Origin: Rhizomicrobium sp.
GTDB taxonomy: Bacteria; Pseudomonadota; Alphaproteobacteria; Micropepsales; Micropepsaceae
Direction of reading: 5' to 3'
Length of the DNA: 64,000 bases
Assembly (NCBI GenBank): GCA_049964915.1
Contig: JBMFWV010000001.1
Coordinates: 13,596-77,595 of the forward strand
In this document: one piece after another, positions 26,879 through 31,877 of the stretch
How the letters are laid out: every line of letters begins with the position of its first letter
Numbering within the stretch: the first letter of the stretch is position 1
Notes under the pieces: model-generated
What the model was told of the DNA's origin: nothing
Seen by the model: the letters and a program-made list of their open reading frames with translations, nothing else
Databases searched by the model: none
Program-made: the position numbers and the translations under genes

Positions 26879-27642
26879 GTAGGACCGGCACAACCGTGCC
26901 GCATATGAAGCTCGCCTATCGTGTGGTGGGGCCGCGTCTGTATATCCGCCATCGCGCGAAGCGCGCATGGCGTAAGGCGCGCGACGGCCATGAAGGCGAG
27001 CTAAAGCTACTCTCGTCCATTGTCCCGCGGGATCGCGTGGCAATGGACGTCGGAGCCAATCGCGGCAATTACACATTTTTCCTCTCGCAATTGGTTCCCA
27101 AGACAGTCGCCTATGAACCATCACCGCCCCTGGCGCGCTTTCTGCGCGAGGCTTGCCTGACCGGTGTGGATGTGCGTGAAGCCGGTGTCTCCGATCTGTC
27201 GGGAATGCTGACCTATTGTGTTCCGCTGAACCGACACTCTCGCCCACAATACAATATCGGCTATCTTGGCTCAGGACTTCCCGCCGGTACCCCTGGCATC
27301 GAGCTTCCCGTTCGAGTGGTGCGACTGGACGAGGAAGATCTCGGAGACGTCGGCTTCATCAAGATAGATGTCGAGGGCCACGAGTTCCAGGTGATCGAGG
27401 GTGCCCAGGGGCTGCTGCGCCGCTGCCGCCCCAATCTGCTGGTAGAGATTCTCGAGGGACGCGGGAACAGACAGCAGATTATACAAAATCGTACGGCCTG
27501 CCTGCTGGACCGCCTTGGCTATGAGATTTATGTCTTCGCGCGTGGTGCCTTGATGCCGCTAAGCGATGCCCCGTTAAGCCAGAATACGATGAACTACATT
27601 TTCCTGCCTCGGAACATGGCAGGACCTGGAGACCTTAGATGA
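26875..27642 (+). CDS. FkbM family SAM-dependent methyltransferase
   Basis: [11 protein letters not shown] motif, [22 protein letters not shown]; TTG overlaps the sucA stop and TGA overlaps the sucB ATG. Start could be slightly downstream. Confidence 0.88.
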
Positions 27643-28892
27643 GCATAGAGATCAAAGTGCCCGCCATGGGTGAGTCGGTGACAGAAGCAACGGTTGCCCG
27701 TTGGTTCAAGAAGGAAGGCGAGAAAGTCGCCCGCGACGAAGCCTTGTGCGAACTGGAAACCGATAAGGTGACGGTCGAAGTGCCCGCTCCCTCGGAGGGC
27801 GTCCTCGACGTGATCGCAGTAAAGGAAGGCGAGACCGTTGAGGTCGGAAGCATTCTGGGACGCATTAACGAAGGTGCAAGCCCGCGTGCTGCGGACACCA
27901 AGACCGCAGACGCAGCCGCTCCAAAGGCCCCGGCAAAGCCGGCAGCGCCGTCCGCGGCCAAGGCTGCAACGAAGCCTGCGAGCACTGCCGGCACAACGCC
28001 CGCCACCGCAGCCCAAATGCCATCGGTACGACGACTGGCCGCTGAAACAGGGCTTGATCCAGCCGCGGTTCAAGGCAGTGGCAAGGACGGCCGGGTGACC
28101 AAGGGCGACATGCTCGCGGCACTTGAGGCACGAGCGGGGGCGCGCGAAGCATCGCGTCCGGCCTCCCCTTTGCCTGGGCCACGGGCGAATGCGGAGCGTG
28201 AGGAACGGGTGGCAATGACCCGCCTGCGCCGCACCATCGCCACCCGTCTTAAGGAATCCCAAAATACGGCGGCTCAGCTCACCACCTTCAATGAAGTGGA
28301 TATGGGCCATGTGATGCAGCTACGCGCCACTTATAAGGATGCCTTTGAAAAGAAGCATCACGTTCGCCTTGGCTTTATGGGTTTTTTCGTCAAGGCCTGC
28401 GTAGCCGCGCTGGAAGAACTGCCTAATGTCAACGCCGAGATAGAAGGCAACGACATTATATACAAAAATTACTACGACATCGGAGTTGCCGTCTCGACCG
28501 AGCGTGGCCTCGTCGTTCCGGTCGTGCGGGATGCCAAGCATAAGACGGTGGCAGGAATTGAGGCGGCGATTACCGATCTTGGCAGCCGTGCGCGCGACAA
28601 CAAGTTGAAGCTAGAAGAGCTGCAGGGCGGTACGTTTTCGATTACCAATGGCGGCGTTTTTGGCTCCTTGATGTCGACGCCGATCCTCAATGCCCCGCAG
28701 TCGGGTATTTTGGGCATGCACAAGATCCAGCCCCGGCCGGTTGCCATTGGCGACAAAATTGAAATCCGACCGATGATGTATCTGGCCTTGTCCTATGACC
28801 ATCGCCTGGTGGACGGACGCGAGGCGGTAACCTTCCTCGTCCGCGTCAAGGAATACCTCGAAGAGCCACAGCGTTTTCTTCTCGATCTCTAA
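27639..28892 (+). CDS. sucB: 2-oxoglutarate dehydrogenase E2 (dihydrolipoamide succinyltransferase)
   Basis: Lipoyl [47 protein letters not shown]. Confidence 0.98.
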
Positions 28893-28952: not shown

Positions 28953-30356
28953 ATGTCCAATAGCTTTGATGTCGTCATCGTCGGCGGTGGGCCGGGCGGC
29001 TACAATGCCGCTATTCGCGCCGGCCAGCTTGGTTTGAGCAGCGCCTGCATTGACAAGCGCGGCACGTTTGGCGGGACTTGCCTCAATGTGGGCTGCATTC
29101 CATCAAAGGCCCTGCTGCACACGAGCCACCTTTATGATGAGGCCTTGAACCACCTGCCAAAGCTCGGCATCAAGACCAAGGTCGAACTCGATCTCGCGGC
29201 TATGATGACCCATAAGACTTCGGTCGTAGGTGAGCTGACGAAGGGTGTCGAGTTTCTGCTCAAGAAGAACAAATCCGAAGCGATTGTTGGACAGGCTCGG
29301 GTGCGAGCTCCCAACCAGGTTGACGTCAAGCTGGCAGACGGCACCATTCGTGAACTGACCGCAAGACATATCGTTATTGCGACAGGGTCGGACAGTGCCA
29401 CCCTCCCCGGTATTGAGATCGATGAGGACCGCATCGTCTCCTCGACCGGAGCGCTATCCTTGAAGCAGGTACCTAAACGCCTGGTGGTGGTTGGCGGCGG
29501 CTATATCGGCCTTGAACTGGGGTCAGTGTGGCGGCGTCTTGGCAGCGACGTCACCGTGGTTGAGTTTCTTGACCGTATCACGCCCGGGCTGGACGGAGAG
29601 ATCGGCAAACAGTTCCAGCGGATTTTATCTCGTCAGGGCATGAAGTTCCAGCTCTCAACCAAAGTGATCGGTGTCGAACGCAGCAAGGACGGCCTTGAAA
29701 TTCGCATCCAACCAGCCGACGGCGGTGAAACCAAGAGCCTGCACGGGGATGTCATGCTCGTGTCCATCGGCCGACGTCCGTATACAGATGATCTTGGATT
29801 GGGTGATGTCGGCGTTGCCCTCGATGCCCGCGGACGCGTCGTCACCGATGTACACTTCAAAAGCAACATACCGGGCATTTATGCGGTCGGTGACGTGCGC
29901 GAAGGAGCTATGCTCGCACACAAGGCCGAGGACGAAGCTGTGGCCTGTATTGACCACATCGCCGGACGCTTCGGGCATGTAAATTATGATGCGATACCGG
30001 CTGTGGTTTACACGGCACCAGAAGTGGCAAGCGTAGGCAAGACCGAGGAAGAGCTTAAGGCCGCTGGCGTCAGCTACAAGATCGGCAAGTTTCCCTTCAC
30101 CGCCAATGCCCGCGCCAAGACCATTGCCGCCACCGAGGGTTTTGCCAAGGTGATCGCCGACGCCAAGACCGATCAGGTCCTTGGGGTGCACATCATTGGG
30201 GCTGAAGCCGGCAACCTCATTCAGGAGGCCGCCCTTGCCATCGAAATTGGCTGCGCCTCCGAGGATATTGCGCGTACCAGCCATGCCCACCCCACGCTGA
30301 CAGAGGCAGTGCGCCAGGCGGCCATGGGCGTGGAAGGCTGGACGATGCAGATGTAA
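28953..30356 (+). CDS. lpdA: Dihydrolipoamide dehydrogenase (E3)
   Basis: GGGPGG, GGTCLNVGCIPSK, GGGYIGLE, MLAHKAEDE, HAHPTLTE. Confidence 0.97.
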   Translation: MSNSFDVVIVGGGPGGYNAAIRAGQLGLSSACIDKRGTFGGTCLNVGCIPSKALLHTSHLYDEALNHLPKLGIKTKVELDLAAMMTHKTSVVGELTKGVEFLLKKNKSEAIVGQARVRAPNQVDVKLADGTIRELTARHIVIATGSDSATLPGIEIDEDRIVSSTGALSLKQVPKRLVVVGGGYIGLELGSVWRRLGSDVTVVEFLDRITPGLDGEIGKQFQRILSRQGMKFQLSTKVIGVERSKDGLEIRIQPADGGETKSLHGDVMLVSIGRRPYTDDLGLGDVGVALDARGRVVTDVHFKSNIPGIYAVGDVREGAMLAHKAEDEAVACIDHIAGRFGHVNYDAIPAVVYTAPEVASVGKTEEELKAAGVSYKIGKFPFTANARAKTIAATEGFAKVIADAKTDQVLGVHIIGAEAGNLIQEAALAIEIGCASEDIARTSHAHPTLTEAVRQAAMGVEGWTMQM

Positions 30357-30454
30357 GGCCCGGCCAAGAGTCGTGCCTGGAGGAAGTTTTGCTTCGTCTA
30401 CGCTGATAACGCGGTATAGTTTTCAGGCACAACGAATCGAAAGGAGGTGATCCA

Positions 30455-30532
30455 GTGTCTCATTGTCATGACCTGCGGCGTCTTGGTGCCGCGAACTGGA
30501 TCGGCGTTTCGGGCGAGGTCCTGGTCGCATAA
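30455..30532 (+). CDS. Candidate 25-aa small ORF (MSHCHDLRRLGAANWIGVSGEVLVA)
   Basis: GTG start directly behind GAAAGGAGGTGATCCA, TAA stop, terminator downstream. Confidence 0.45.
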   Translation: MSHCHDLRRLGAANWIGVSGEVLVA

Positions 30533-30574
30533 AGCAAGCAGTCCGTGCGGGCACCTACCCCGCAGCAGGCAATG

Positions 30575-30608
30575 GAAAGGCGGTCCGCGTCTGGCGCGGC
30601 CGCCTTTC
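30575..30608. terminator. Intrinsic terminator hairpin, probably bidirectional
   Basis: GAAAGGCGG-T-CCGCG-TCTGG-CGCGG-CCGCCTTTC, with A/T flanks on both sides, between lpdA/sORF and the convergent tRNA. Confidence 0.75.
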
Positions 30609-30641
30609 AGATTCTGATACATCTGTTACGCAGGCAGAAAG

Positions 30642-30970
30642 TGGTGCGGGCGGCCGGACTTGAACCGGCACAGGCCTTTCGGCCCTACGGATTTTCATAC
30701 CACTTCGGCTTTCGCCGCCCGCATCGCCTTACCCTTGGGTCTGCGACGGGTTCGTGGTCTGGACTATCCCTTCACCCTGGCGTCGCCGCTTTAGGTGCTG
30801 CCCGTCTAGTCTCTACACCTTCCGCCGGAGCTGCGCTCTGGCGGCTTGGCTCGGGATTGCCAGCAAAGGATTCCCCGAATTTGAGCAGTTCTGCACCGCA
30901 GGTTTCCCTGCGGGCACTCAAGTCAAATGGCTTTTAAGTCCGTTGCGTCTACCGATTTCGCCACGCCCGC
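30642..30970 (-). tRNA. trnL-UAA: tRNA-Leu(UAA), intron-containing: exon 1 30970-30936, exon 2 30695-30642; 89 nt spliced, CCA encoded
   Basis: Acceptor stem GCGGGCG/CGCCCGC-ACCA, D arm GGCGAAATCGGTAGACGC, anticodon stem ACGGA/TCCGT with loop CT-T|AA-AA after joining, long variable arm AGGGCCGAAAGGCCT, T arm GCCGGTTCAAGTCCGGC. Confidence 0.95.
30696..30935 (-). ncRNA. Group I self-splicing intron (240 nt), trnL-UAA/IC3-like, no ORF
   Basis: P1 ACUU/GAGU with U-G splice pair; P2 CCGCAGG-GAAA-CCUGCGG; P3 CUGCUC/GGGCAG; P element AAAUUCGGGGAA, Q GGCAAUCCCGAGCC; R GUAGAGACUA and S AAGGGAUAGUCC (P7 GACUA/UAGUC); ACCAC/GUGGU closing; CGGC-GAAA-GCCG; terminal G. Confidence 0.93.
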
Positions 30971-31177
30971 AGAGCCGGCCCGATACATAGCCTTAAGCGG
31001 GCATAGGGCCAACCCGGCAAGAGCAGATTGTGCGCTGGTTTGCGACGGCCTTCAGCGATGGTGACGGGTGGCCGCCGCTGGTGATTTGAGTTGCGGACAT
31101 AATTTTATACAACCTGCAGTAGATTGCTCATGTCTTTTACGAGTATTATCATATACTTAACGCACTACAGAGCTGCA

Positions 31178-31205
31178 TTGACAGACGCCGCGCCCTGACT
31201 ATAGT
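31178..31205 (+). promoter_or_regulatory. Sigma70 promoter of rpsD
   Basis: TTGACA-N16-TATAGT, about 55 nt upstream of the ATG. Confidence 0.75.
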
Positions 31206-31259
31206 GCGCGCCTTCCGAAGGAGCCCAGCTCCTTCTCCACGCCTATTGTCGGAACAAAA

Positions 31260-31877
31260 ATGTCCAAACGTAGTACGACCAAATACAAGCTTGATCGCCG
31301 CCTGGGTGAAAACCTTTGGGCCCGCCCCAAAAGCCCAGTCAATAAGCGCTCATACGGTCCAGGACAGCATGGCCAGCGCCGCGCCAAAAAGCTCTCCGAC
31401 TACGGTACCCAGCTGCAAGCCAAGCAGAAGCTGAAGGGCTATTACGGCAATATCACGGAAAAGCAGTTTCGCCGCTACTATGCCGAAGCTTCCCGTCGTC
31501 CCGGCGATACTGGCGAGAACATGATCGGCCTGCTTGAAAGGCGGCTCGATGCAGTGGTGTTCCGCGCCAAGTTTGTGCCCACCCCCTTTGCGGCCCGGCA
31601 GCTCGTCAATCACGGCCATGTCAAGGTCAATGGCCGGCGCGTCACGATTTCCTCCTACCTCGTGAAGGAAGGTGATGTCCTGGAGCTATCCGGCAAGGCC
31701 AAGGAGATGGCCCTTGTCATTGAGGCGTCAAAATCCGCTGAACGCGATACGCCCGACTATATTGAAGTCGATCATAACCACATGACCGCCAAATATCTGC
31801 GGACGCCGCGTCTGGGTGATGTGCCTTACGCCGTGCAGATGCAGCCCAGTCTCGTGGTCGAATATTATTCGCGCTAA
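31260..31877 (+). CDS. rpsD: 30S ribosomal protein S4
   Basis: [53 protein letters not shown]. Confidence 0.99.

What the first reader, a model, noticed from the sequence alone, without database searches (positions are those of the whole stretch)
30438..30608. Mini transcription unit: 16-nt complement of the 16S 3' end, self-occluding hairpin, 25-codon ORF, terminator
Seen: GAAAGGAGGTGATCCAG (30439-30455) is the exact reverse complement of the conserved 16S tail CTGGATCACCTCCTTTC, far longer than a normal SD. It leads into GTG and a 25-aa ORF. The coding sequence can fold back on it (GATCCAGT 30449-30456 with ACTGGATC 30495-30502; CGAAA 30438-30442 with TTTCG 30507-30511), hiding SD and start. 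A TATAGT element lies about 20 nt upstream and a strong terminator downstream. Inference: a regulated small peptide gene (type I toxin-like logic, although the peptide is not strongly hydrophobic), or an RNA that traps 30S subunits; the antisense strand would mimic the anti-SD. Its position between lpdA and the intron-bearing tRNA, near rpsD, is suggestive only.
Basis: partly seen in the sequence, partly recalled or inferred. Interest (0 to 1): 0.65.

Follow-up and report, generated by a model that had tools for sequence, protein, structure and literature searches.

The report
Ribosome-docking mini-mRNA of rre/CC2171 family
This is a real, conserved gene for a small RNA of about 180 bases whose front end matches the whole free tail of 16S ribosomal RNA ahead of a 25-codon reading frame, but it belongs to an already described alphaproteobacterial family (rre small mRNAs, Rfam CC2171) whose function is still unknown.

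Summary
GAAAGGAGGTGATCCAG (30439-30455) is a 17-nt perfect complement of the 16S 3' end found in same-genus genomes. Its last G starts a GTG-initiated 25-codon ORF (30455-32), followed by a strong hairpin (30575-30608).

It is not new. The unit is a full-length, sub-threshold match to Rfam RF01867 "CC2171" (63.5 bits, E 1.5e-12). It has the hallmarks of the "rre" small mRNAs of Hahn et al. 2016 (PMC5711450): they bind 30S subunits tightly, are translated weakly, and decay in a start-codon-dependent way. Their function is unknown.

- The start codon is only ATG, GTG or TTG; CTG occurs in no alphaproteobacterial element.
- The frame is 14-27 codons in 128 of 133 elements, against 22-23 of 133 in the other two frames.
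- Variability shows no codon periodicity and changes between close relatives are mostly non-synonymous. The frame is kept; the peptide appears not to be.
It covaries at its one free position across the wider family, independently of 16S.
- The fold-back excludes an equally conserved closing helix that leaves the ribosome-binding site open.

Type-I-toxin logic is not supported. Verdict: new member of a known kind; modest interest. No transcript data could be obtained.

Novelty: the reader's own criterion applies. There is a match to an already characterised family.

The parts
30415..30420 (+). -10 promoter box TATAGT; no convincing -35
   Evidence: Sequence. It aligns with the conserved CTATAT box of same-genus homologues, where CTTATC lies 17 nt upstream. 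The consensus scan did not call it.
30427..30611 (+). Predicted small RNA of about 180 nt; both ends are inferred
   Evidence: Rfam RF01867 aligns full length to 30431-30605 (63.5 bits, E 1.5e-12). The 5' end is inferred from the -10 box and the 3' end from the hairpin. No RNA data were available.
30439..30455 (+). 17-nt extended Shine-Dalgarno ('17c-region'), GAAAGGAGGTGATCCAG
   Evidence: Perfect complement of the 16S 3' end of same-genus genomes. Unique in the assembly. The core is invariant in 24 of 24 homologues. Predicted duplex with the 16S tail is -35.2 kcal/mol.
30455..30532 (+). sORF: GTG start, 25 codons, TAA stop (MSHCHDLRRLGAANWIGVSGEVLVA)
   Evidence: The ORF is 19-30 codons in all 24 homologues. 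Frame 0 is 14-27 codons in 128 of 133 elements, against 22-23 of 133 in the other frames. The start is never CTG in alphaproteobacteria.
30449..30455 (+). Helix B, 5' arm (GAUCCAG): 3' half of the SD plus first base of the start codon
   Evidence: RNAalifold consensus gives 7 bp in 21 of 21 sequences. 99.3% of cells pair. The base before the start codon covaries with its partner.
30496..30502 (+). Helix B, 3' arm (CUGGAUC): an internal copy of the first 7 nt of the 16S tail. It is also the 5' strand of hairpin 2
   Evidence: Invariant in the genus. It pairs alternatively with the downstream SD-like GAGGUCCUGG in hairpin 2 in 21 of 21 sequences.
30461..30467 (+). Helix A, 5' arm (CAUUGUC, codons 3-5)
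   Evidence: Closing helix of the Rfam consensus. It is in the minimum-energy fold. 99.3% of cells pair.
30568..30574 (+). Helix A, 3' arm (GGCAAUG)
   Evidence: Helix A crosses helix B, so the two exclude each other.
30474..30493 (+). Hairpin 1 (UGCGGC ... GCCGCG) inside the sORF
   Evidence: Rfam alignment. Genus members carry deletions of 12 or 15 nt here, both multiples of three.
30495..30525 (+). Hairpin 2 (ACUGGAUC ... GGUCCUGGU) inside the sORF
   Evidence: Local folds form it in 21 of 21 genus sequences with different partner sequences. Inner pairs show compensatory changes.
30546..30564 (+). Hairpin 3 (UGCGGG ... CCCGCA) after the stop codon
   Evidence: Rfam alignment and sequence.
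30575..30608 (+). Terminator-like hairpin: 15 bp, -27.8 kcal/mol, weak U-tract
   Evidence: 6 of 11 consensus pairs show compensatory changes in the genus. The terminator scan did not call it.

Best explanation
Window 30427-30611 (+) is a stand-alone gene for an rre-type small mRNA, on the CC2171 (Rfam RF01867) branch of that alphaproteobacterial family.

Proposed mechanism:
1. The RNA is transcribed from its own promoter to a hairpin terminator.
2. Its 5' part carries a 17-nt complement of the 16S 3' tail that ends in the G of a GUG start codon. The free 5' bases (GAAAGGAGGU) act as a toehold by which a 30S subunit docks very tightly.
3. Docking is gated by RNA structure. A fold-back helix (GAUCCAG:CUGGAUC) covers the 3' half of the site and the start codon. 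It is the minimum-energy fold of the first 76 nt, so it probably forms first during transcription.
4. That helix competes with a closing helix (CAUUGUC:GGCAAUG), which leaves the site open but buries codons 3-5.
5. The 25-codon frame is probably entered only weakly. Ribosome engagement at the start codon probably sets the RNA's lifetime.
6. Selection appears to keep the start codon and the frame length, not the amino-acid sequence.

Shown here: family membership, 16S complementarity, the constraints on start codon and frame, and the two exclusive helices.
Taken from experiments on rreB: 30S binding, weak translation, start-codon-dependent decay.
Inferred: the order of folding and the toehold step.
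Unknown: the cellular role.
For: Family membership:
- Full-length RF01867 match at 63.5 bits, E 1.5e-12.
- One copy in the genome.
- Present in 19 of the 25 genus genomes searched (the window's own plus 18 of 24 others) and in 5 of 16 other families. Seven hits lie above the 75-bit cut-off.
- Named loci grade from Methylobacterium 96.7 and Brevundimonas 91.1 bits down to rreB 42.1 and rreR 35.8 bits.

16S complementarity:
- 17 nt against same-genus 16S ends.
- The core is invariant in 24 of 24 homologues.

Start codon and frame:
- Start codons are GTG, ATG or TTG in all 24 hits from the unbiased search.
- With CTG at that position the whole collection gave 9 hits, none alphaproteobacterial. 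With A, G or T it gave at least 120.
- Frame 0 is 14-27 codons in 128 of 133 elements. Frames +1 and +2 reach that range in 22 and 23.

RNA-level rather than peptide-level constraint:
- Entropy by codon position is flat: 1.02/1.11/1.07, 0.82/0.72/0.66 and 0.83/0.87/0.70 in three subtypes.
- Differing codons between close pairs are non-synonymous to synonymous 18:4, 71:17 and 26:19.
- In L009 and L019 the invariant CTGGATC is read in a different frame.

Helix B (fold-back):
- 7 bp in 21 of 21 sequences.
- The partner was located with position N masked. The nucleotide opposite N was then T in 36 of 46 located partners where N=A, A in 5 of 5 where N=T, and G in 1 of 1 where N=C. For N=G it was C in 3 and T (wobble) in 2 of 10; the other five did not pair.
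- 16S is unchanged in two of these variant genomes.

Helix A (closing helix):
- 99.3% of cells pair.
- It is in the minimum-energy fold of 14 of 21 sequences. The median energy difference of B over A is about +4 kcal/mol, and +5.1 for the window.
- The first 76 nt alone fold into helix B.

Published experiments on rreB (PMC5711450):
- Northern detection and co-sedimentation with 30S.
- Ribosome association depends on the 5' extension of the SD.
- Very weak translation.
- Replacing GUG by UAG raises the half-life from 10 to 37 min.

CC2171 was detected by Northern blot in Methylorubrum.
Against: - No transcript, ribosome or structure-probing data exist for this organism.
- The Rfam score is below the curated cut-off (63.5 against 75 bits).
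- No -35 box or U-tract meets the consensus scans.
- Within the genus, helices A and B are invariant, so neither shows covariation there.
- The covariation for helix B rests on one base pair and roughly five independent events.
- For single sequences, the longest complement to the SD region is no longer than in shuffles.
- The codon-level tests are confounded by RNA structure and by relatedness of the sequences.
- 30S binding and weak translation are extrapolated from a homologue that scores only 42 bits with the same model.
Confidence: 0.75

Rival explanations
1. It is an ordinary, if tiny, protein-coding gene. The 25-aa peptide MSHCH...WI...A is the functional product, and the giant SD and the RNA structure only tune its synthesis.
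For: - The start codon and frame length are conserved.
- Peptides look alike within lineages: MSHCH..(N/T)WI(L)..AA in the genus, Methylobacterium and Rhizomicrobium.
- RreB-EGFP is made, weakly.
- Hahn et al. read the clade-wise conservation as conservation of a small protein.
Against: - Variability shows no codon periodicity, and about 80% of differing codons between close relatives are non-synonymous.
- The conserved codons TCT CAT TGT CAT all end in T and are invariant. GC3 of neighbouring genes is 0.65-0.67. This fits pairing in helix A.
- CTGGATC is kept where the frame over it shifts, in L009 and L019.
- W changes to R or G exactly where the non-coding partner base changes.
- Peptides of different orders are unrelated.
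- Synthetic RreB and RreR are unstructured, and overproduction gave no phenotype.
Confidence: 0.17
2. It is a type-I-toxin-like module: a small toxic peptide whose translation is held off by the fold-back, possibly with an antisense RNA.
For: A short ORF has its SD and start codon hidden in a fold-back, inside a stand-alone unit.
Against: - The peptide is not hydrophobic: GRAVY 0.35, and no 11-residue window scores above 1.52.
- No Pfam hit.
- No promoter-like site on the minus strand within 30000-31400.
- It is single-copy and vertically conserved across orders, unlike most toxin loci.
- Overexpression of rreB was not toxic.
Confidence: 0.03
3. It is a cis-acting part of a neighbouring gene: the 3' UTR or terminator region of sucB-lpdA, or a leader-peptide attenuator for a downstream gene.
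For: - It starts 83 nt after the lpdA stop.
- A short ORF followed by a terminator resembles an attenuator.
Against: - lpdA directly adjoins the element in only 3 of the 20 same-genus loci, the window's included. The neighbours differ elsewhere.
- The next gene downstream is a tRNA-Leu on the opposite strand.
- rpsD has its own 11-of-12 consensus promoter at 31178-31205.
- A conserved -10 box precedes the unit.
- rreB has a mapped transcription start and is a discrete 165-nt RNA.
Confidence: 0.03
4. It is a chance match or a decayed fragment of a 16S rRNA gene on the minus strand, without function.
For: The 17-mer is identical to the reverse complement of the 16S end.
Against: - Identity stops exactly at 17 nt. 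The flanks do not match 16S or the spacer.
- The whole 180-nt unit is conserved across orders of Alphaproteobacteria.
- A given 17-mer is expected about 4e-4 times in 7.4 Mb of two-stranded sequence.
Confidence: 0.01

Closest known systems
rre small mRNAs: rreB (Bradyrhizobiaceae) and rreR (Rhodobacterales), Hahn et al., RNA Biol 14:1353 (2016/17), PMC5711450
   Same: - A 17-nt perfect complement of the 16S 3' end whose last base is the G of a GTG start codon.
- A short sORF in a stand-alone RNA of about 165-180 nt with its own promoter and terminator.
- Part of the complementarity region is hidden in a conserved hairpin, with 5' bases left free.
- Single copy, with variable genomic context.
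[quoted passage not shown]
   Different: - The sORF has 25 codons, against 14 in rreB and 18 in rreR. Its peptide is unrelated to both.
- The 3' architecture is that of CC2171: a closing helix around three hairpins.
- rreB and rreR score only 42 and 36 bits with the model that gives 63.5 bits here.
- No experiments exist for this branch beyond Northern blots.
Rfam RF01867 'CC2171', a Caulobacter crescentus sRNA. The attribution to Landt et al. 2008 is from citations only; the paper itself is not held. Northern-validated in Methylorubrum extorquens (bioRxiv 10.1101/2022.01.24.477521)
   Same: - Full-length alignment to all 159 model positions, including the invariant GAAAGGAGGUGAUCCAGUGUCUCAUUGUCAU block, the closing helix and the terminator.
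- Same-genus homologues exceed the cut-off.
   Different: - This copy is below the gathering score (63.5 against 75 bits), so Rfam-based annotation does not call it.
- Rfam files the family as a non-coding sRNA. Its consensus does not include the SD-occluding helix B.
Type I toxin mRNAs whose SD is sequestered by a fold-back (for example hok or tisB; named from memory)
   Same: A small ORF whose ribosome-binding site is occluded by intramolecular pairing in the nascent or full-length RNA.
   Different: No hydrophobic peptide, no antisense RNA and no toxicity on overexpression. The site is a 17-nt super-SD, not a normal one.
STAB-SD, the orphan Shine-Dalgarno stabiliser in the cryIIIA 5' UTR of Bacillus thuringiensis
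   Same: An SD-like sequence whose pairing with the 16S 3' end serves something other than efficient translation: 30S binding that affects RNA stability.
   Different: STAB-SD has no start codon behind it, sits in the leader of a long mRNA in Firmicutes, and stabilises that mRNA. In rreB, ribosome engagement at the start codon shortens the half-life.

Membership tests
rre small mRNAs (Hahn et al. 2016) | [quoted passage not shown] | tested here: met
   17 nt (30439-30455) match ...CTGGATCACCTCCTTTC of two same-genus and three other alphaproteobacterial 16S genes. Caveat: the window's own assembly has no 16S gene.
rre small mRNAs (Hahn et al. 2016) | The last base of the complementarity region is the first base of the start codon (GTG, or ATG in some lineages) of a short ORF | tested here: met
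   G30455 is both. The ORF has 25 codons. The family range is 14-27 codons in 128 of 133 elements.
rre small mRNAs (Hahn et al. 2016) | Stand-alone small transcript with its own promoter and terminator, in a context that is not conserved | tested here: inconclusive
   A conserved -10 box and a strong hairpin are present and synteny is variable. The scans called no promoter or terminator, and no RNA data were available.
rre small mRNAs (Hahn et al. 2016) | Most of the complementarity region and the start codon can be sequestered in a conserved hairpin, leaving 5' bases free as a seed | tested here: met
   Helix B GAUCCAG:CUGGAUC pairs in 21 of 21 sequences. It covaries at the position before the start codon. 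It is the minimum-energy fold of the first 76 nt. It is not in the full-length minimum-energy fold.
rre small mRNAs (Hahn et al. 2016) | Tight binding to 30S subunits, weak translation, start-codon-dependent turnover | not testable with these tools
   Known only for rreB of Bradyrhizobium.
Rfam RF01867 CC2171 | Score at or above the curated gathering threshold (75 bits) | tested here: not met
   63.5 bits, E 1.5e-12, model positions 1-159. This is an operational cut-off. Same-genus homologues score 63-86 bits, five of them above 75 bits.
Rfam RF01867 CC2171 | Conserved 5' block, closing helix CAUUGUC:GACAAUG, internal hairpins and a terminator, in the model's order | tested here: met
   Alignment to the model. 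The closing helix pairs in 99.3% of cells and the terminator covaries.
Type I toxin-antitoxin | Small hydrophobic, membrane-active peptide | tested here: not met
   GRAVY 0.35, no transmembrane-length hydrophobic stretch, no Pfam hit.
Type I toxin-antitoxin | Cognate antisense RNA | tested here: inconclusive
   No promoter-like site on the minus strand. No transcript data.

The most novel reading that the evidence does not exclude
The rre/CC2171 RNAs may not be genes for small proteins at all. They may be gated 30S-docking riboregulators. On this reading the reading frame is kept only as a start codon and a length, while the peptide drifts. An internal copy of the 16S tail (CUGGAUC) toggles between the real SD (helix B) and an internal SD-like decoy (hairpin 2). 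Helix B in turn excludes the closing helix A. Capture of a 30S subunit would then depend on folding state and on free, mature 16S 3' ends. The RNA would sense or buffer the pool of idle 30S subunits, or their 3'-end maturation, in a class of bacteria where most genes lack an SD.
Probability: 0.3. Interest if true: 0.6.

Novelty: new member of a known kind. Interest (0 to 1): 0.3.

Why it matters
As a discovery it matters little. The element type was published in 2016 and has been in Rfam for longer.

It does matter as a reminder that a near-universal, single-copy alphaproteobacterial RNA with the strongest possible ribosome-binding site still has no known function.

The comparative results here give concrete handles for experiments in Caulobacter or Methylorubrum:
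- The start codon and the frame length are under selection, while the peptide sequence appears not to be.
- The SD-masking helix covaries independently of 16S.
- That helix excludes a second conserved helix.

The results also link the Rfam "non-coding" family CC2171 to the rre "small mRNA" literature. The two do not cite each other in the texts read here.

Tried and rejected
- ARAGORN found no tRNA or tmRNA in the window.
- Rfam at gathering thresholds found nothing in 64 kb. Only the E-value scan revealed CC2171.
- The promoter and terminator scan called nothing at the unit.
- The own assembly has no rRNA genes, so 16S had to be taken from relatives.
- The first alignment (A1) mixed strands and was discarded.
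- Testing each sequence for the longest complement to the SD region against shuffles was uninformative. The median fraction of shuffles reaching the observed length was 0.2-0.7.
- The alternative ORFs across the unit (74 aa on the minus strand, 56 aa on the plus strand) have no NCBIfam or Pfam hits.
- The organism could not be named. The best named LpdA relatives are only about 65% identical, and records near the window's genome are withheld.
- Landt et al. 2008 is not held.
- Schrader et al. 2014 was searched for small ORFs in sRNAs without a specific hit. It gave only the context that 75% of Caulobacter genes lack an SD.
- Searches for follow-up work on rreB and rreR found none in the library.
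- A covariance model of my own was considered. It was not built, because the competing helices make one consensus structure misleading.
Full report
**1. The observation**

- GAAAGGAGGTGATCCAG lies at 30439-30455. It is 17 nt, not 16.
- Its last G opens GTG at 30455-30457 and a 25-codon ORF ending in TAA at 30530-30532, encoding MSHCHDLRRLGAANWIGVSGEVLVA.
- GATCCAGT (30449-30456) is complementary to ACTGGATC (30495-30502), and CGAAA (30438-30442) to TTTCG (30507-30511).
- TATAGT lies at 30415-30420.
- A 15-bp hairpin spans 30575-30608, with a predicted energy of -27.8 kcal/mol.

The window's assembly has 264 contigs and 59.5% G+C, and it contains no 16S gene. I therefore took 16S ends from two same-genus genomes and three other alphaproteobacteria. 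All read ...CCTGCGGCTGGATCACCTCCTTTCTAAGGA. The 17-mer is a perfect complement of the last bases of 16S.

The predicted duplex with the 16S tail is -35.2 kcal/mol. The 17-mer is unique in the 3.7-Mb assembly. The next-longest match is a 13-mer inside coding-looking sequence on another contig.

- The hairpin is followed by UUUCAGAUUCU, not a U-tract.
- Only a -10 box is recognisable. The consensus scan called neither a promoter nor a terminator here.

**2. What it is**

Rfam at gathering thresholds reports nothing in the window. A permissive scan aligns 30431-30605 over the full length of RF01867 "CC2171", a Caulobacter sRNA, at 63.5 bits (cut-off 75) and E 1.5e-12. The model consensus begins cAAcaAucGAAAGGAGGUGAUCCAGUGUCUCAUuGuCaU, so the giant SD and the first codons are the hallmark of that family.

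The family is widespread.
- The genome holds one copy.
- 18 of the 24 other same-genus genomes and 5 of 16 genomes from other families have it. Seven hits lie above the cut-off.
- In the alignment of 24 homologues, AAGGAGGTG[AG]TCC and TGTC after the start position are invariant.

[quoted passage not shown] I then found and read it (PMC5711450). It describes exactly this design.
- A 165-nt RNA, rreB, carries a 17-nt "17c-region" ending in the G of GTG and a 14-codon sORF.
- The RNA is enriched in the ribosome pellet and co-sediments with 30S. This depends on the 5' extension of the SD.
- Translation is very weak.
- The half-life rises from 10 to 37 min when GUG is changed to UAG.
- Overexpression gives no growth phenotype.

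The paper never mentions CC2171 or Rfam. CC2171 was confirmed by Northern blot in Methylorubrum, again with no function assigned.

Scoring named loci with RF01867 links the two literatures:

| Locus | Bits |
|---|---|
| Methylobacterium | 96.7 |
| Brevundimonas | 91.1 |
| Rhizomicrobium | 69.8 |
| this window | 63.5 |
| Bradyrhizobium rreB | 42.1 |
| Ruegeria rreR | 35.8 |
| Mesorhizobium | 35.0 |
| Sphingomonas | 32.6 |

The window's element belongs to the CC2171 branch of the rre family.

**3. Surroundings**

- Upstream lie sucB (27639-28892) and lpdA (28953-30356).
- Downstream on the minus strand is a tRNA-Leu(UAA) gene split by a group I intron (30645-30970).
- Then comes rpsD (31260-31877), with its own near-consensus promoter at 31178-31205.
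- An EAL-domain gene follows on the minus strand.

lpdA directly adjoins the element in only 3 of the 20 same-genus loci, the window's included; in a fourth locus it lies about 1.4 kb away. The intron-bearing tRNA is a neighbour only in the closest relative. Position therefore carries no functional hint, as Hahn et al. also found outside the Bradyrhizobiaceae.

**4. Is the ORF real?**

Most were alphaproteobacterial. Each lineage has its own short peptide:

| Lineage | Peptide |
|---|---|
| This genus, Methylobacterium, Bosea, Brevundimonas, Rhizomicrobium | MSHC..., 23-25 aa |
| Rhodobacterales (rreR) | MSRKVLERGVGT..., 18 aa |
| Sphingomonadales | MSHGSA..., 18 aa, ATG start |
| Mesorhizobium | MSSDFV..., 23 aa |
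| Bradyrhizobium (rreB) | MSFIKRCHLAGIAR, 14 aa |

Three results show that a start codon and a frame are selected.
- The 24 homologues from the unbiased Rfam-model search start with GTG, ATG or TTG only.
- The same pattern with CTG at that position gave 9 hits in the whole collection, none alphaproteobacterial.
- Frame 0 runs 14-27 codons in 128 of 133 elements, against 22 and 23 of 133 in the other two frames.

The amino-acid sequence does not look selected.
- Column entropy is flat across codon positions: 1.02/1.11/1.07 for the 25-codon MSHC group, 0.82/0.72/0.66 for rreR, and 0.83/0.87/0.70 for the sphingomonad group.
- Differing codons between close pairs are non-synonymous to synonymous 18:4, 71:17 and 26:19.
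- The invariant codons TCT CAT TGT CAT all end in T. Neighbouring genes have a GC3 of 0.65-0.67.
- In L009 and L019 the invariant CTGGATC is read in a different frame.

These tests are confounded by RNA structure and by relatedness of the sequences. Taken together, though, they favour constraint on the RNA and on the act of translation, not on the peptide.

**5. Structure**

The Rfam consensus and the single-sequence minimum-energy folds instead use a closing helix, CAUUGUC (30461-30467) with GGCAAUG (30568-30574), which I call helix A.

- The two helices cross, so they exclude each other.
- Both pair in 99.3% of cells and are nearly invariant within the genus. Neither is proven by covariation there.
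- The terminator shows 6 of 11 pairs with compensatory changes.

Outside the genus, the one base of helix B's 5' arm that varies is the base N between TCC and the start codon. I located the partner segment with N masked. The opposite nucleotide was then as follows:

| N | Opposite nucleotide |
|---|---|
| A | T in 36 of 46 located partners |
| T | A in 5 of 5 |
| C | G in 1 of 1 |
| G | C in 3, T (wobble) in 2, no pair in 5, of 10 |

This amounts to roughly five independent events. For N=G the non-pairing cases are mostly sphingomonad elements, where the located segment is probably not the homologous helix. In one N=T genome and one N=G genome, 16S still reads CTGGATCACCTCC. The internal helix is therefore maintained on its own account, even at the cost of the 16th base pair with 16S and of a W-to-R or W-to-G change in the peptide.

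CUGGAUC is a copy of the first seven bases of the 16S tail. In helix-A conformers it pairs instead with a downstream SD-like stretch (GAGGUCCUGG here). This forms hairpin 2 in 21 of 21 sequences, with variable partners.

Energetically, helix A is favoured in the full-length RNA.
- The difference of B over A is +5.1 kcal/mol for the window and about +4 kcal/mol at the median.
- In that state the SD and GUG are mostly unpaired.
- The first 76 nt alone fold into helix B together with CGAAA:UUUCG, at -28.8 kcal/mol.

**6. Most likely mechanism**

Shown here:
- a conserved stand-alone unit;
- a 17-nt 16S complement;
- a selected start codon and frame length;
- two exclusive conserved helices, one of which masks the 3' half of the SD and the start codon.

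Taken from rreB experiments:
- tight 30S binding through the 5' extension;
- very weak translation;
- ribosome-dependent decay.

Inferred:
- The nascent RNA first masks its site with helix B.
- The free GAAAGGAGGU serves as a toehold for the 16S tail.
- Docking, or refolding to helix A, exposes the site.
- Codons 3-5 buried in helix A keep initiation inefficient.
- Engagement at the start codon limits the RNA's lifetime.

The cellular role remains unknown. Titration of ribosomes is unlikely on stoichiometric grounds.

**7. Rivals**

- A true small-protein gene is the main rival (see section 4).
- Type-I-toxin logic fails on hydropathy (GRAVY 0.35), on the lack of any antisense signal and on non-toxicity in Bradyrhizobium.
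- A cis-element of lpdA or a leader for a downstream gene fails on synteny and gene orientation.
- A 16S gene remnant fails because identity ends at 17 nt while the whole unit is conserved.

**8. Novelty and verdict**

The feature is real and striking, but it is a new member of a known kind: the rre small mRNAs and Rfam CC2171. Notes from earlier agents of this scan on other genomes reached the same family. I read them only after my own identification, and they are not independent evidence.

The modest additions here are:
- the explicit link between CC2171 and rre;
- the start-codon and frame-length statistics;
- the lack of peptide-level selection;
- the covariation support for the masking helix and its exclusivity with the closing helix.

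Interest 0.3.

Noticed in passing
window 30645-30970 (-): A tRNA-Leu(UAA) gene is split after U34 by a group I intron of about 240 nt (Rfam RF00028, 41.3 bits, below the cut-off of 50, plus two tRNA half matches). ARAGORN does not find it. The intron is present in the closest relative (L013). L014 has an intronless tRNA-Leu next to its rre element. An earlier agent judged it an already catalogued intron class.
   Followed up: partly
L025:5402-5420(-), L035:1347-1365(+), L047:7834-7852(+), L134; L059:1713-1731(-): Four Gemmatimonadota genomes carry rre-like units: AAGGAGGTGATCC, a TTG start, a 20-codon ORF, a shared GGGCAAGCGATCGCC motif and a distal GC-rich hairpin. A Planctomycetaceae genome carries one with a GTG start, 10 codons and a terminator. 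Hahn et al. list only Alphaproteobacteria. RF01867 does not score the Gemmatimonadales copy.
   Followed up: partly
L121:3613-3810 (-): One CC2171-type element of an uncultured proteobacterium contains an internal GGGATCACCTCCC. This includes an 11-nt copy of the 16S tail that could mask its whole Shine-Dalgarno core.
   Followed up: no
window 30430-30438 and the 8 nt before AAGGAGG in the 120 loci: An A/C-rich motif (ACAAC, CAACA, ACAGC) lies directly 5' of the 17-nt region in nearly all alphaproteobacterial subtypes and in the Rfam consensus (cAAcaAuc). It may mark the transcript 5' end or act as a CA-rich enhancer.
   Followed up: no
window 30474-30479 with 30559-30564 (alignment A4 columns 46-50 with 143-147): UGCGG of hairpin 1 can alternatively pair long-range with CCGCA of hairpin 3. 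This extends the closing helix in the constrained folds of 11-13 of 21 sequences, with 87% of cells paired. It is a second possible structural alternative within the RNA.
   Followed up: partly
window 31178-31205 (+): A near-consensus sigma-70 promoter (TTGACA, 16 nt, TATAGT; 11 of 12) lies 55 nt upstream of rpsD.
   Followed up: no
G000, whole assembly (264 contigs): No 16S rRNA signature sequence is present anywhere in the assembly, so the rRNA operon was not assembled or binned. Comparisons with 16S had to use relatives.
   Followed up: yes
G000:C110:8794-8806 (+): The only other copy of AAGGAGGTGATCC (13 nt) in the genome lies inside coding-looking sequence (...VWTEGGDPRAVVEARGL..., GatB-like from memory). 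It is probably a chance internal SD-like site.
   Followed up: no
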